Shown in pieces: positions 24,601 through 32,899 of a stretch of 64,000 nt of DNA. Where the stretch lies: NCBI RefSeq assembly GCF_055900595.2, contig NZ_CM148325.1. The stretch is one strand, 5' to 3'. Position numbers: made by a program. Positions within the stretch are counted from its first letter, which is position 1, and each line of letters begins with the position of its first letter.

Positions 24601-27600
24601 GTGTTCGTAGATATTGTTGCAGTATGGAACCATATTCTAAGATACTTTGCTGTAAGAAATGCTACGTTTGATGAGCTCTATTTTATTATTCTGCCAGCTA
24701 AAAATTAGTATTGAATATAAAACTCACCACATTGAGAATAAATGAAACAAATATATTTAATCAGGAAGTTAAAAACAGATAACATGGGTGTAATACAATA
24801 AGGTACAGCCAGTAATTCCGGGCTTGCGGAGTTGCTGGATCGTATGACTTAGACGTGATAAAAAACAGGGAATACGATGAAATTCACTGAAGATACTCGG
24901 GTAAAAATCCCCGTAATCCTCCACCTGATACGGTTGGGATACTACTACCTGTCCCTTAAAGAACAACGCTGGGACAAAGAAACCAACATCTTCCCTGACC
25001 TCTTTACTGCTGCGATTGGCCGAATAAACCCCGGACTTGCGCCAGACGACATCGGACGCCTGTTAAAAGACCTCACGCTGCTTCTCGACAACGATGATCT
25101 GGGCCGCGCCTTCTTCGAAAAACTCAGTGATCGTTCCGGTATCAAACTGATCGACTTTGATAACTTCAACAACAACAGTTTCCATGTCGTCACCGAATTG
25201 ACCTGCGAAAACGATGATGAAGAATTCCGCCCGGACATCACGCTGCTGATCAACGGCATGCCGCTAATCTTTATCGAAGTGAAAAAACCCAATAATCGGG
25301 AAGGCATCGTCGCAGAACGCAATCGCATCAACGAACGCTTTAAAAACCCCAAATTCAAACGCTTCGCCAACATCACCCAGTTCATGATCTTCTCCAATAA
25401 CATGGAGTATGACGACAGCGACCCGGAGCCGATTCAAGGGGCATTCTACGCCAGCAGCTCTTACAGCAACCCGGTATTCAACTACTTCCGCGAAGAAGAA
25501 CTCTTCAACCTGACCAACTTACTGAAACCGCTGTCAGACGAAACCGAGATCGCCGTCCTGAAAGACAACAACCTGGAAGTCATCCGTACCAACCCGGAAT
25601 TCCAGACCAACAAAGATCACAACTGCCCGACTAACCGCCTTTGCACCGCGCTGTTGAGCCGGGATCGGCTGGCATTTATTCTGCGCTATGCGCTGGTGTA
25701 TGTCGCCGAACCGGGCGGAATCCAGAAACACATCATGCGCTACCCGCAGCTCTTCGCCACTAAAGCAATCGAGCGCAAACTGAACGCTGGTGTGAAGAAA
25801 GGCATCATCTGGCACACCCAGGGCAGCGGGAAAACCGCGCTGGCTTACTACAACGTGCGCTTCCTGACAGATTACTTCCAGAATCAGCAGGTGATCCCCA
25901 AATTCTACTTTATTGTTGACCGTCTGGATCTGCTCCAGCAGGCGCAGCGCGAGTTCACCGCCCGTGGCTTAATCGTTCACCTTATCGACTCCCGCGAAGC
26001 CTTCACTCGCGATATCAAAGCGACGCAGGCGCTGCACAACCACCACGGCAAAGCGGAAATCACCGTCGTCAACATCCAGAAATTCCGCGATGACCCGGAC
26101 GTCGTCACTACCAAAGACTACGATATCAACATCCAGCGCGTGTACTTCCTCGATGAAGTCCACCGCAGCTACAACCCCAAAGGAAGTTTCCTGGCGAACT
26201 TAAGCCAGTCGGACACCAACGCCATCAAAATTGGCCTGACCGGTACGCCTCTGCTGGGCACAGACTACAACTCCCGCGACCTCTTCGGCGACTACATCCA
26301 CAAATACTACTACAACGCCTCCATTGCCGACGGCTACACGCTGCGCCTGATCCGCGAAGAGATCGCCACCAACTACCGAATGATCCTGCAACAGGCGCTA
26401 AAAGAGGTGGAAGTCAGAATGGGCGATGTGGATCGCAAAGACATCTACGCCCATCCCAGCTTCGTCAAGCCGATGTTGAACTACATCATCACCGACTTTG
26501 CCAAAAGCCGGGGCGCGCTGAATGATGACACCATCGGTGGCATGGTGATTTGTGACAGCTCTGAACAGGCCAAACAGATGTTTGAGATATTCAACACTGA
26601 CTACGCCGAATCGCCCACCACCGTTTACCACATCCACACCAAAGAAACGCGGAAAATCAAACGCGCCGCCCTGATCCTACACGACGTCGGCAGCAAGCAG
26701 GAACGCAAAGAGTGGGTGGAGCAATTCAAAGCGGGAGAGATTGACCTGCTGTTCGTCTACAACATGTTGCTCACTGGCTTTGACGCCAAACGGCTAAAAA
26801 AACTCTACCTCGGGCGGGTGATCAGAAAGCACAACCTGCTCCAGGCGCTGACCCGCGTCAACCGAACCTACAACCACTTCCGCTACGGCTATGTGGTGGA
26901 CTTCGCCGACATCCGCCAGGAATTTGACGCCACCAACAAAGCCTACTTCGAAGAGCTACAGGCTGAACTGGGCGATGAAATGGAGCATTACTCCCGCCTG
27001 TTCAAATCAGCGGATGAGATCCGCGAAGAAATCGAACATATCAAAGACGTTCTGTTTAGCTTTGATACCGAAAACGCGGAAATCTTCACTGACCAGATAA
27101 ACCAGATCCAGGACCGGGAAACCGCGCTGGTACTGAAGAACGCGCTGACCGACGCCCGCAGCCTTTACAACCTGATTCGCCTCCAGGGCAACACAGAGTT
27201 TCTCCAGGCGCTGGATTTCAACAAACTCAACATCCTCTACCGCGAAGCCAGCCGCCGCCTCGACTTACTCAACCTGAAAGCGGATCTGGTACAGGGCGTT
27301 GACCTCTCCGGCCTGCTGAACCGGGCGCTGGAAGAGGTGATCTTTGAATTCCATAAAGTGGGCGAAGAAGAGCTGGTACTGGCCGACGAGCTGAAAGAGA
27401 CGCTGCGCCGCACCCGCGAAGCGCTGGCCGCCAACTTCGACCAGCAGGACCCGCAGTTCGTCAGCCTGAAAGACGAACTGGAGCGTCTGTTTAAGAAAAA
27501 GAAACTCAGCGAAGTCACCCAGCAAGAAATGGTTGCGAATATCGGCACACTCAATAAAATTCATGGCCGCATCAAAGAGCTAAACCGCCAAAACAACCTG

Positions 27601-30600: not shown

Positions 30601-32899
30601 TTACATTCACTGCAAGTCGTTTGCCCAGAACCCGGATTACTGAAACGATATGACGATATTGTTTCAGAATACAATAAAATGATTTTTACGCGTAGCCTTG
30701 AAAATCAGGATCTAATCAAACTGCGTGACTGGCTCCTCCCTATTCTTATGAACGGACAGGTCAAGATTAAATAACCCCCAACGTATTTTTCGAAGCGCAG
30801 TCCAAGTTTGAACTGCGCTTCACTTCCCCCAACAAAAAACCTGCCATCCATTACTGGTAGTGATTCCTCTCACATTTTCCATGTATTAATTATTATTGTT
30901 ACTACTACACCCAAACGACCTATAATCGTAAGCGGCTCGCCAGAACCGTATTGATATTTACTGAGCGCTCAGATCAACTTTCCAGGGTAACAGATCGCGT
31001 ATCCAGTTTGCCTGTCATTCCTAGATATGTTCAATGACGTAACGCAGCCATTTTTCTGGAGCCATATTGTTCAGACGGCATGTACCAATCCGCAGGTACA
31101 GCATCGCCGCATCCTCAAGTAATGCCGGTAATTTGGGGCGTAATTCTGTTGCGCTTTTACTGAACACAATGCCGTATTCAGTAAGAAGTCCAAGAACATG
31201 ATCTATCAGTTGTGTCCTTCCATCGAGATCAACCGATGCATTTTCAAAAAAGCCTGGACGTTCTGTAGGTCCAGACTTTTTATTGGTACCAGTCGTATAG
31301 TTCTATATTGATAGGTTTCAGCTATTGCTGTGCGTCGTTATAATCATTTTTCTGACGCCATTGATAAGATTTAACATGTTGTGCTGGATGCAATATTACA
31401 TCATAGTTGAGTTCCCTTATTTCCTGTGGGCAGTGATGGGATGTCCCGCAAGCCTTCATCGCAACGGTCATTTTGGCTGTTATACCAGCCAGTTAAGCAG
31501 TTGGTTGTGAGAAAGTTTGATCTTTCCCGCGTGATTGCCACGAGCATTGATACTGAAAAGATAAAAGTTCGTTTTAGCCTGAGCGATGTCGGTAATTTTC
31601 TGTTCAGTCATGGCCTTTCTCTTACTTTTGTGGTTAAAATTTATTCGCTATGGCGCAATTGAAAGCGGTCGTGAAGGTGGGGGAAGACTATCTCATCACT
31701 TACCATATTTCCGACATATTCTCACAACAAAATACCACGTAACTATTGATGAATATTGTTCTCTCCTGAGCAGCGTTTATGCTTTAATTGCTAAATCGAT
31801 TTAATTAGTTTAGCAATTAGTATATTGGAGCCTTTATGAGCACAAGAGTATGGGTACTTGGTGATGCGGTTGTTGATTTATTACCCGAAAGCCAGGGGAG
31901 ACTACTACAGTGTCCTGGCGGGGCGCCTGCTAATGTTGCAGTCGGTATCGCAAGGCTGGGGGGGAAAAGTGCCTTTATTGGCAAAGTTGGCGATGATCCT
32001 TTCGGTCGCTTTATGTATCAGACACTGAGTACAGAAAATGTTGATACACGTTATATGTCTCTTGATCCTCAACATCGCACCTCAATTGTGGCTGTAGGAC
32101 TTGATGAGCAAGGAGAAAGAAACTTTACCTTTATGGTACGCCCAAGTGCCGATCTTTTTTTACAACCTGATGGCCTTCCTGCATTTGGGCCGGGTGAATG
32201 GCTCCATCTTTGTTCCATTGCGCTCAGTGCAGAACCTTCCCGAAGTACCGCATTTCTGGCTATGGAGAAAATACGTCAGGCTGGCGGAAACATCAGTTTT
32301 GATCCCAATATCCGCAGCGATCTCTGGCAGAGTGAAGCGCTATTAAGGAAATACCTTGATCGCGCACTTTCGCTGGCGAATATCGCTAAATTGTCCGAAG
32401 AAGAGTTGCTATTCATCAGTGGCGAAAGCCAGGTTCAGCAAGGCGCATATTCATTAGTACAACGTTATTCGTTGACTTTATTGCTTATCACACAAGGAAA
32501 AAATGGCGTACTTGTGTATTTTCAGGGGCAGTTTATCCACTATCCCGCCAAACCTGTTTCTGTCGTCGATACGACCGGGGCAGGAGATGCTTTTGTCGCT
32601 GGATTACTTGCCGGTCTGGCTGATTCTGGAATACCAACAAATACCAGACAGCTTGAACGAATCATTGTACAAGCTCAGATTTGTGGTGCTCTGGCGACCA
32701 CGGCTAAAGGCGCGATGACCGCCTTACCCCGACAACACGATCTCCCTTCACAATAGTGATCCTGCTGTTGTATCTGTAACCCGATTTGTCGTGCCTGTCA
32801 CATTTACTAAATCGGTTTAGCGAAAATAATTGCTTTGGCTAAAAAGTCAGCTTTATTATCAACACCTAAACCGGTTTAGCATTTTAGCAATTTTTATAA

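What the first reader, a model, noticed from the sequence alone, without database searches (positions are those of the whole stretch)
24877..30774. Type I R-M operon with a compositionally mosaic hsdS, physically linked to the sucrose regulon
hsdR and hsdM are GC-rich and overlap by a few bases, while the first target-recognition half of hsdS is conspicuously AT-rich, consistent with TRD exchange and hence novel specificity. The R-M system is bracketed together with scrKYABR by the repeats above, an unusual metabolic-plus-restriction cassette.
Basis: partly seen in the sequence, partly recalled or inferred. Interest (0 to 1): 0.4.

Follow-up and report, generated by a model that had tools for sequence, protein, structure and literature searches.

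The report
Known Type I restriction system beside sucrose genes
This is an intact but ordinary E. coli Type I restriction-modification operon of the already studied EcoMIII family, whose patchy base composition comes from the swappable DNA-recognition modules typical of such systems, and which sits next to sucrose-utilisation genes only because both landed in the same genomic island.

Summary
hsdR (24877-27921), hsdM (27915-29549) and hsdS (29542-30774) are intact and overlap by 7 and 8 nt. hsdS is a strong compositional mosaic: GC3 is about 0.70 in hsdR/hsdM, 0.29 in TRD1, 0.62 in the central conserved block and 0.37 in TRD2.

TRD exchange is directly supported. Sister E. coli loci are 98.6% identical up to the hsdM stop, unrelated over 29550-30048 (TRD1), then 97% identical again. 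Three different TRD1s share this TRD2, and ST131's EcoMIII (HsdR 96.8%, HsdM 95.6% identical) differs in both TRDs.

"Novel specificity" is not supported. This TRD pair occurs in thousands of E. coli assemblies and from Klebsiella to Acinetobacter. It very probably equals the published RM.EcoST101XII on a pheU island (GCA N5 GTTC, shared with Dickeya solani Dso4321II). Low-GC TRDs are family-wide, so they do not mark a recent event.

The "cassette" idea is weak. scr occurs in 987 of 5,426 complete genomes (mostly between ygcE and queE, also on IncF plasmids) and the hsd family in 614, but the two are adjacent in about 24. The bracketing repeats are only 79-87% identical. The left copy stays in scr-less islands and the right copy travels with scr on plasmids. 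The finding is ordinary and of low interest.

The parts
24877..27921 (+). hsdR, Type I restriction/translocase subunit (1014 aa)
   Evidence: Pfam HSDR_N, SWI2_SNF2/ResIII and T1R_D3-like; TIGR00348. Nuclease D...E-V-K motif, GSGKT (res 316) and DEVH (res 426) are present. 96.8% identical to the EcoMIII HsdR of ST131 apart from an 18-aa gap after residue 581 in a variable acidic linker.
27915..29549 (+). hsdM, N6-adenine methyltransferase subunit (544 aa, GTG start overlapping the hsdR stop by 7 nt)
   Evidence: Pfam N6_Mtase; PADLOC MTase_I PDLC03033 full length, 1005 bits; NPPF at residue 312; 95.6% identical to M.EcoMIII.
29542..30774 (+). hsdS, specificity subunit (410 aa, overlaps hsdM by 8 nt)
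   Evidence: Pfam Methylase_S, two stretches; PADLOC Specificity_I; identical protein P0001 found in thousands of assemblies.
29550..30048 (+). TRD1-a, the exchangeable N-terminal target-recognition module (AT-rich)
   Evidence: No DNA homology to sister loci L002-L005 and L007 over exactly this stretch, while the flanks are 91-98.6% identical. GC 0.357 and GC3 0.29. Present in 38 of 5,426 complete E. coli genomes.
30049..30222 (+). Central conserved region of hsdS (coiled-coil spacer; a recombination anchor)
   Evidence: 93-100% identical in all four alleles including EcoMIII; GC3 0.62, like hsdR/hsdM.
30223..30684 (+). TRD2-x, the C-terminal target-recognition module
   Evidence: 97-99% identical in alleles P0107, P0113 and P0115, which carry other TRD1s; unrelated in EcoMIII. 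Present in 59 genomes. About 60% identical (by eye) to TRD2 of the T. tengcongensis S subunit, PDB 5YBB/3OKG.
30685..30774 (+). C-terminal conserved region of hsdS
   Evidence: The LRDWLLP..LMNGQ motif is invariant across 13 homologues.
24108..24430 (.). Left copy of a degenerate repeat; part of the island backbone upstream of hsdR
   Evidence: Retained at 92% identity in scr-less sister islands. Partial matches in 683 plasmids with no annotated feature.
24462..24630 (-). IS66-family transposase remnant upstream of hsdR
   Evidence: RefSeq annotation of the identical region in JSMCR1: frameshifted, N-terminus missing.
31021..31167 (-). IS66 transposase C-terminal remnant between hsdS and scrK
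   Evidence: PF13817 DDE_Tnp_IS66_C on the called 48-aa product in L012, L015 and others; ORF listed; translation.
31703..38776 (+). scr segment (scrK 31836-32756, scrY 32924-34441, scrA 34502-35872, scrB 35872-37281, scrR 37307-38314), a separately mobile module
   Evidence: Gene identities. The same 7.07-kb block is 98.8% identical on IncF plasmids. A 6.6-kb core (31719-38315) lies between ygcE and queE in ST131. The region 31113-39161 has no counterpart in the sister islands L002-L005.
38374..38720 (.). Right copy of the degenerate repeat; travels with the scr segment
   Evidence: lies inside the block shared with plasmids.
48447..49667 (-). Tyrosine (P4-type) integrase of the island
   Evidence: NCBIfam PRK09692 integrase domain; annotated as an integrase in JSMCR1.
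49814..49889 (-). tRNA-Phe (pheV), the island's integration site
   Evidence: ARAGORN. Flanked by speC (51101-53236) and nupG (53285-54589). The same island is at pheU in JSMCR1.

Best explanation
The locus is an intact three-gene Type I restriction-modification operon (hsdR-hsdM-hsdS, with overlapping stop and start codons suggesting coupled translation). It belongs to the EcoMIII family of E. coli and sits on an integrase-bearing genomic island at tRNA-Phe, which is pheV in this window.

By analogy with characterised Type I enzymes, an M2S complex would methylate adenines in a bipartite target. An R2M2S complex would translocate and cut DNA that carries unmethylated targets.

HsdS has the canonical layout TRD1, conserved core, TRD2, conserved tail. 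In this family the TRDs form a pool of AT-rich cassettes that are exchanged by homologous recombination. The recombination uses the GC3-rich conserved flanks, namely the 3' end of hsdM and the central conserved region of hsdS. That accounts for the compositional mosaic.

The allele here (TRD1-a with TRD2-x) is an old and widespread combination. It is most probably the enzyme published as RM.EcoST101XII, which methylates GCA(N5)GTTC, the same motif as RM.Dso4321II of Dickeya solani.

The sucrose regulon next to it is a separate roughly 7-kb module lying in an IS66-scarred junction downstream of hsdS. The two are linked by descent within this island lineage, not by function or by joint transposition.

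Shown here: gene identity and integrity, the TRD replacement boundaries, the allelic series, and the independent distribution of the two modules. Inferred: enzymatic activity, the recognition motif, and which TRD reads which half-site.
For: Family and integrity.

EcoMIII relationship: the ST131 hit lies in GI-thrW beside tRNA-Thr/proAB. HsdR and HsdM are 96.8% and 95.6% identical and the gene order is the same. EcoMIII was shown by knockout plus SMRT sequencing to methylate RTAC N4 GTG (PMC4659465).

TRD exchange: DNA homology to L002-L005 runs 24380-29549 at 98.6%, is absent over 29550-30048, and resumes at 30049-31112 at 97.4%. The same breakpoints (29550 and 30038) appear against the leuX-island locus L007. 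Per-domain identities: P0107 has TRD1 24% and TRD2 99%; P0113 has 28% and 98%; EcoMIII shares only the conserved regions.

Family-wide mosaic: all six TRDs have GC3 0.24-0.38, the conserved core 0.60-0.67 and hsdR/hsdM 0.68-0.71. The Dickeya locus shows the same pattern.

Old pair: full-length homologues retain both TRDs in Klebsiella (91%/99%), Citrobacter, Salmonella, Dickeya, Aeromonas, Achromobacter, Pseudomonas and Acinetobacter (59%/75%).

Motif: the preprint describes an E. coli S subunit on GI-pheU that is 81.22% identical to S.Dso4321II, with TRDs at residues 4-183 and 244-366. It also reports an R-less inactive copy in O118:H16 strain 07-4255. Our HsdS is 80-82% identical to Dickeya S subunits, sits on the same type of island, and R-less derivatives exist.

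Independence of scr.
Against: The identity with S.EcoST101XII is circumstantial, because I could not obtain that sequence or query REBASE. The 81.22% reported against my 80-82% is a match within error, not proof.

In the preprint, the motif was assigned to EcoST101XII by elimination and by a match to a REBASE entry, not by knockout.

HsdR here lacks 18 residues that are present in EcoMIII, the leuX-island copy and Dickeya, so restriction activity, as opposed to methylation, is unverified.

All ten genomic contexts shown for the exact HsdS had scr immediately downstream. The hsd(a+x)-scr linkage is therefore tighter than 'accidental neighbours' might suggest, although common descent explains it.
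Confidence: 0.85

Rival explanations
1. One reading: a recent TRD exchange in this lineage created a new, uncharacterised DNA specificity.
For: TRD1 is the most AT-rich part of the operon and has sharp homology boundaries. Other alleles with different TRD1s exist in sister islands. REBASE could not be queried directly.
Against: The a+x pair is conserved as a pair across many genera with graded divergence in both TRDs. The exact protein is in thousands of assemblies. Low GC3 is shared by every TRD in the family and by Dickeya. A published E. coli pheU-island enzyme with matching properties already has a motif assigned.
Confidence: 0.08
2. hsdRMS plus scrKYABR form a composite-transposon-like cassette, bounded by the direct repeats and mobilised as one unit.
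For: Direct repeats flank exactly these eight genes. IS66 remnants lie nearby. The block is found at both pheV and pheU.
Against: The repeats are only 79-87% identical, contain indels and encode no transposase. The left copy is retained in scr-less islands, while the right copy accompanies scr alone on IncF plasmids. The pheU and pheV copies share 27.6 kb of collinear island at 99.3%, so the whole island moved, not the block. The hsd family is never on plasmids, whereas scr is.
Confidence: 0.04
3. The linkage is functional: the R-M system acts as an addiction or stabilising module that protects the island, including scr, from loss.
For: All ten contexts shown for the exact HsdS keep scr immediately downstream. 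The island carries other defence genes.
Against: Derivatives that lost hsdR and the 5' part of hsdM still retain scr. Sister islands keep hsd without scr. scr is maintained in about 950 genomes with no linked hsd. From general knowledge, Type I systems are poor post-segregational killers because of restriction alleviation.
Confidence: 0.07
4. The operon modifies DNA but no longer restricts, because HsdR carries an 18-aa in-frame deletion in its second motor domain.
For: The gap after residue 581 is absent from EcoMIII, the leuX-island copy and Dickeya HsdR. The published evidence for the probable equivalent enzyme concerns methylation only.
Against: The deleted segment is an acidic, poorly conserved linker that also varies in length and sequence in Dickeya. 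All catalytic motifs are intact. The ORF is maintained full length, and 99.4% identical, in sister islands.
Confidence: 0.15

Closest known systems
EcoMIII (EC958_0424-0426), the Type I R-M system on GI-thrW of E. coli ST131 (Forde et al. 2015, PMC4659465)
   Same: Same gene order hsdR-hsdM-hsdS. HsdR is 96.8% and HsdM 95.6% identical. The M subunit carries only PF02384. The central and C-terminal conserved regions of HsdS are the same.
   Different: Both TRDs differ (15-35% identity), so the target differs from RTAC N4 GTG. It sits in a different island (thrW, not Phe-tRNA). Its HsdR is 18 aa longer.
RM.EcoST101XII (E. coli ST101, GI-pheU) and RM.Dso4321II (Dickeya solani), both assigned GCA N5 GTTC (bioRxiv 10.1101/2020.06.07.138552)
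   Same: An E. coli Phe-tRNA island location; about 81% S-subunit identity to Dickeya solani; TRD coordinates that fit a 410-aa S subunit; R-less derivatives in STEC-type strains. This is probably the same enzyme.
   Different: Identity could not be verified residue by residue. The preprint does not mention scr next to the system.
Natural TRD hybrids of the Type IA family (StySP/StySB giving StySQ; reviewed by Loenen et al. 2014, PMC3874165)
   Same: The variable-conserved-variable-conserved hsdS layout, with recombination in the conserved regions producing N-TRD/C-TRD reassortants. Here three TRD1s share one TRD2.
   Different: A different enzyme family. The reassortants here are natural alleles found in different islands, not laboratory recombinants.
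EcoR124I/II (Type IC), the nearest solved structures
   Same: The best PDB sequence matches for HsdM (E 1.6e-32) and HsdR (E 3e-26), with the same domain architecture.
   Different: Only weak similarity, and the gene order in IC is hsdM-hsdS-hsdR, so this system is not a member of IC.
The PTS-dependent scr regulon scrKYABR of enteric bacteria (pUR400, Klebsiella; from my own knowledge also carried by the Phe-tRNA-integrating element CTnscr94 of Salmonella Senftenberg)
   Same: All five genes are present with the expected family matches. They occur on plasmids and on a Phe-tRNA island.
   Different: No conjugation genes were seen in this window. The CTnscr94 comparison is recalled from memory, not tested.

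Membership tests
Type I restriction-modification system | Three separate subunit genes: HsdR, HsdM and HsdS | tested here: met
   Pfam, NCBIfam and PADLOC matches for all three.
Type I restriction-modification system | HsdM carries the N6-adenine methyltransferase catalytic motif (NPPF/Y) | tested here: met
   NPPF at residue 312 and a full-length N6_Mtase match.
Type I restriction-modification system | HsdR carries a PD-(D/E)xK nuclease domain plus superfamily-2 motor motifs | tested here: met
   HSDR_N domain, D...E-V-K motif, GSGKT (316) and DEVH (426).
Type I restriction-modification system | HsdS has two TRDs separated by conserved coiled-coil regions | tested here: met
   Two Methylase_S stretches; conserved and variable blocks seen in the alignment.
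Type I restriction-modification system | ATP-dependent translocation and cleavage away from a bipartite, adenine-methylated target | not testable with these tools
   Needs biochemistry or a methylome. Only indirect literature support exists.
EcoMIII family of E. coli Type I systems | High HsdR and HsdM identity to EcoMIII, and the same operon order R-M-S | tested here: met
   96.8% and 95.6% identity to the GI-thrW locus of ST131, with the same order.
EcoMIII family of E. coli Type I systems | Subunit interchangeability (complementation) with EcoMIII | not testable with these tools
   A genetic test.
RM.EcoST101XII / Dso4321II specificity (GCA N5 GTTC) | S subunit at least 99% identical to S.EcoST101XII | not testable with these tools
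Circumstantial agreement: 80-82% against the reported 81.22% identity to D. solani, a Phe-tRNA island location, and TRD coordinates that fit.
RM.EcoST101XII / Dso4321II specificity (GCA N5 GTTC) | Genomic m6A at GCA N5 GTTC that depends on this system | not testable with these tools
   Requires SMRT or nanopore data.
Type IC (EcoR124I) family | Close HsdM/HsdR sequence similarity to EcoR124I and gene order hsdM-hsdS-hsdR | tested here: not met
   Only weak matches (E 1.6e-32 and 3e-26; alignment), and the order here is R-M-S.
Type IB (EcoAI) family | HsdR matches the EcoAI/FtnUII equivalog model | tested here: not met
   35 bits against a cut-off of 550.
Composite transposon / mobile cassette (hsd plus scr) | Near-identical terminal repeats or IS copies encoding a transposase | tested here: not met
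   The repeats are 79-87% identical with indels and have no Pfam match.
Composite transposon / mobile cassette (hsd plus scr) | The unit occurs as a whole in unrelated genomic contexts | tested here: not met
   It is seen only inside the same collinear island, at pheV or pheU. The modules occur separately elsewhere.
PTS-dependent sucrose regulon scrKYABR | Fructokinase, sucrose porin, EIIBC(Scr), sucrose-6-phosphate hydrolase and a LacI/FruR-type repressor, in this order | tested here: met
   NF006957, LamB porin, TIGR01996, TIGR01322 and TIGR02417, with the four NCBIfam models above their cut-offs.

The most novel reading that the evidence does not exclude
The near-constant pairing of this particular hsdS allele with scr (all ten contexts examined) could reflect selection rather than descent. 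The R-M module might stabilise the scr-bearing segment or the whole island. Alternatively, its methylation of GCA N5 GTTC sites might influence expression of neighbouring island genes. A more modest version: the natural series TRD1-a/b/c on one TRD2-x scaffold includes specificities (b+x, c+x) that have never been characterised.
Probability: 0.07. Interest if true: 0.4.

Novelty: already known. Interest (0 to 1): 0.15.

Why it matters
It matters little beyond annotation. The locus can be labelled an EcoMIII-family Type I R-M system with a probable GCA N5 GTTC specificity, on a pheV defence and fitness island.

It has practical relevance for transforming or conjugating DNA into strains that carry it.

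It also offers a tidy natural allelic series: three TRD1s on one TRD2, plus EcoMIII with both TRDs different. That series could be used to assign half-sites to TRDs in this family.

The hsd-scr adjacency shows how unrelated modules accumulate at IS-scarred junctions in tRNA islands. It is not a new kind of element.

Tried and rejected
1. Promoter and terminator scans over 24300-32000 found no more sites than the shuffled controls, so no operon-structure claim rests on them.

2. Pfam scans of ORFs overlapping the bracketing repeats found nothing significant. A plasmid search showed the repeat family is widespread but unannotated. I could not name it and stopped there.

3. The 2024 paper on pheV islands (PMC11537424) does not mention sucrose or restriction genes. 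The STEC pheU/pheV paper (PMC6174562) and the PCN033 paper (PMC4578781) were irrelevant to this block.

4. A full-text search for the RefSeq protein accessions (WP_000063698 and others) found nothing.

5. I looked for the recognition sequence of the T. tengcongensis enzyme (5YBB/3OKG), whose TRD2 resembles TRD2-x, but did not find it in the held library.

6. I considered Type IC or IB membership and rejected both on similarity and gene order.

7. I considered that the 18-aa HsdR gap marks a pseudogene. I rejected this as the main reading because the gap is in-frame, lies in a variable linker, and is shared by intact sister copies.

8. I did not use structure prediction or the large representative-protein search, because sequence-level evidence was already decisive.

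
Full report
**What is there**

Pfam, NCBIfam and PADLOC identify them as HsdR, HsdM and HsdS of a Type I restriction-modification system.
- HsdR carries HSDR_N, SWI2/SNF2-ResIII and T1R_D3 domains.
- HsdM carries N6_Mtase and matches PADLOC model PDLC03033 over its full length at 1005 bits.
- HsdS has two Methylase_S stretches.

The genes overlap by 7 and 8 nt. The catalytic motifs are intact: NPPF in HsdM, and a D...E-V-K nuclease motif, GSGKT and DEVH in HsdR. Downstream lie scrK, scrY, scrA, scrB and scrR (31836-38314). The matches of four of these (scrK, scrA, scrB, scrR) are above the curated NCBIfam cut-offs.

**Composition**

The compositional claim holds and is stronger at codon level.

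| Region | GC3 |
|---|---|
| hsdR | 0.709 |
| hsdM | 0.684 |
| hsdS, whole gene | 0.380 |
| hsdS TRD1 (codons 1-169) | 0.290 |
| hsdS central conserved region (170-227) | 0.621 |
| hsdS TRD2 (228-381) | 0.370 |
| hsdS C-terminal conserved tail | 0.483 |

The 499-nt TRD1 segment has GC 0.357. The lowest value of any equal-sized window in hsdR/hsdM is 0.473 (mean 0.527, sd 0.025). So the mosaic consists of two AT-rich TRDs set in a GC3-rich scaffold, not just an AT-rich first half.

**TRD exchange is demonstrable**

A search with HsdS and an alignment of selected hits showed E. coli alleles that share the scaffold and TRD2 but not TRD1.

At DNA level, sister islands carrying allele P0107 (L002-L005) are 98.6% identical to the window from 24380 to 29549. 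That endpoint is exactly the hsdM stop codon. They show no similarity over 29550-30048 and are 97.4% identical again over 30049-31112. An unrelated island near leuX carrying allele P0113 (L007) is 91% identical and breaks at virtually the same points, 29550 and 30038.

Per-domain protein identities to the window's HsdS:

| Allele | TRD1 | TRD2 |
|---|---|---|
| P0107 | 24% | 99% |
| P0113 | 28% | 98% |
| ST131 allele (EcoMIII) | unrelated | unrelated |

The ST131 allele shares only the conserved regions. Four alleles therefore sit on one scaffold: a+x (the window), b+x, c+x and d+y. This is the classical variable-conserved-variable-conserved hsdS architecture, with recombination in the conserved parts, as reviewed by Loenen et al. 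(PMC3874165).

**The composition is not a mark of a recent event**

All six TRDs examined (a, b, c, d, x, y) have GC3 of 0.24-0.38, while the conserved core has 0.60-0.67. The Dickeya solani locus shows the same mosaic.

The a+x pair is conserved as a pair, with gradually increasing divergence in both TRDs. It runs from Klebsiella (91%/99%) through Citrobacter, Salmonella, Dickeya, Aeromonas, Achromobacter and Pseudomonas to Acinetobacter (59%/75%). The exact 410-aa protein is indexed in 4,251 blocks of the public-assembly collection. Among 5,426 complete E. coli genomes, TRD1-a occurs in 38 and TRD2-x in 59.

**Which system it is**

The hsdR/hsdM backbone occurs in 614 of 5,426 complete E. 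coli genomes, always on the chromosome, and mostly as an ST131-type allele at about 96% identity. One such ST131 locus lies beside tRNA-Thr and proAB, which is GI-thrW. This is EcoMIII of strain EC958. Forde et al. showed by knockout and SMRT sequencing that EcoMIII methylates RTAC N4 GTG, and they describe an hsdR-hsdM-hsdS order and an M subunit with only PF02384 (PMC4659465). The window's HsdR and HsdM are 96.8% and 95.6% identical to it.

The nearest solved structures are EcoR124I/II (Type IC), but the similarity is weak and the gene order differs. The EcoAI (IB) model is far below its cut-off. The system is therefore not a member of either classical family.

**Probable specificity**

A preprint on E. 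coli ST101 methylomes (bioRxiv 10.1101/2020.06.07.138552) describes RM.EcoST101XII:
- It is a Type I system on a tRNA-pheU island, assigned to GCA N5 GTTC.
- That is the same motif as RM.Dso4321II of Dickeya solani.
- The two S subunits are 81.22% identical, with TRDs at residues 4-183 and 244-366.
- The same S (over 99% identical) occurs in O118:H16 strain 07-4255, where R is missing and no methylation was seen.

The window's HsdS fits each point:
- It is 80-82% identical to Dickeya S subunits.
- It is carried on a Phe-tRNA island: pheV here, flanked by speC and nupG, and pheU in JSMCR1.
- It has R-less derivatives that all break at window position 28180 inside hsdM.

I could not compare the sequences directly. 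I rate the identity at roughly 0.8. On that basis the claim of novel specificity is not supported.

**The scr linkage and the repeats**

The adjacency is real. In all ten contexts shown for the exact HsdS, scr follows directly. Twenty-four complete genomes carry the whole 15-kb block at 99.9% identity.

But the two modules are distributed independently:
- scr occurs in 987 genomes, with 959 chromosomal and 40 plasmid places.
- In ST131, scr lies between ygcE and queE with tight boundaries (window 31719-38315), megabases from the ST131 hsd locus.
- A 7.07-kb version (31703-38776) sits on IncF plasmids without hsd.
- Sister islands carry hsdRMS followed by the hns-like gene with no scr. The window's 31113-39161 has no counterpart in them.

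The bracketing repeats (24108 to about 24430, and 38374 to about 38720) are only 79-87% identical, contain indels and have no recognisable coding content. The left copy is part of the hsd-bearing backbone and is retained in scr-less islands. The right copy travels with scr on plasmids.

The window and the JSMCR1 pheU island are collinear over 27.6 kb at 99.3%. The block has therefore moved only as part of the whole island. IS66 remnants lie on both sides of hsdRMS, at 24462-24630 and 31021-31167, which fits an IS-scarred junction that accreted modules.

**Caveat on function**

HsdR in this island lineage lacks 18 residues after position 581 that are present in EcoMIII, the leuX-island copy and Dickeya. 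The segment is an acidic, poorly conserved linker, so I expect it to be tolerated. Restriction activity, as distinct from methylation, remains untested.

**Verdict**

The system is nevertheless a known kind: EcoMIII family, and probably the published EcoST101XII specificity. Its mosaic composition is generic to the family. The "cassette" with scr is a lineage-specific adjacency inside a mosaic Phe-tRNA island. Interest is low (0.15) and the novelty class is "already known".

Noticed in passing
window 11709-18491: Upstream of hsd the island carries further defence-type genes: a PD-Lambda-1-like protein (11709-12875; matches only the C-terminal part of the model), a NERD+UvrD helicase candidate (13069-14856), an unassigned 457-aa ORF (15270-16643), and a P2 Old-like ATPase/nuclease (16785-18491). 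Together with hsdRMS this makes a defence island.
   Followed up: partly
window 19508-22441: A PAPS-reductase/DUF3440 (IbrA-like) gene at 19508-20542 is shorter here (344 aa) than in related loci (410 aa). It is followed by an IS3-family transposase ORF (20840-21658) and then a ParB-N/IbrB-like ORF (21803-22441). The ibrAB-like pair appears to be interrupted by the IS.
   Followed up: no
window 6124-10149 and 10507-10993: A 1341-aa ORF with filamentous-haemagglutinin repeats (CdiA-like) is followed by an 87-91% identical second copy of its 3' region (8928-9414 against 10507-10993). This looks like an orphan toxin-tip module of a contact-dependent inhibition locus.
   Followed up: no
window 26619/26620 (HsdR residue 581/582): An in-frame 54-nt (18-aa) deletion relative to the EcoMIII, leuX-island and Dickeya HsdR proteins, in an acidic variable linker of the second motor domain. 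It is shared by the sister Phe-tRNA islands.
   Followed up: yes
window 28180 (inside hsdM); loci L013, L018, L020: A widespread derivative lineage, including APEC O2-211 and chicken isolates E14-E32, has lost hsdR and the 5' part of hsdM at one common breakpoint. It retains hsdS and scr, next to SBP/Sod_Cu genes. This matches the 'R missing, inactive' state reported for O118:H16 strain 07-4255.
   Followed up: partly
window 38866-39340 (- strand): The H-NS-family gene next to scrR carries a 1-nt insertion (near 38976) that truncates it to 124 aa and removes the C-terminal DNA-binding domain. It is intact (157 aa) in JSMCR1 and several other copies.
   Followed up: yes
window 24351-24383: A 33-nt stretch at the edge of the left repeat is 100% identical in more than 270 E. 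coli, Shigella and E. albertii plasmids with no annotated feature. It may be the terminus of an IS or another small mobile sequence.
   Followed up: no
window 45125-46798: A phosphoethanolamine transferase (sulfatase family, 557 aa) with weak similarity to EptA/CptA and MCR-family models, all far below their cut-offs. This is typical cargo of Phe-tRNA islands.
   Followed up: no
locus L022 (Dickeya solani CP051460.1) 7795-9026: In this D. solani strain the orthologous hsdS is split by a frameshift into 81-aa and 341-aa ORFs, so the Dso4321II-type system may be inactive in some D. solani isolates.
   Followed up: partly
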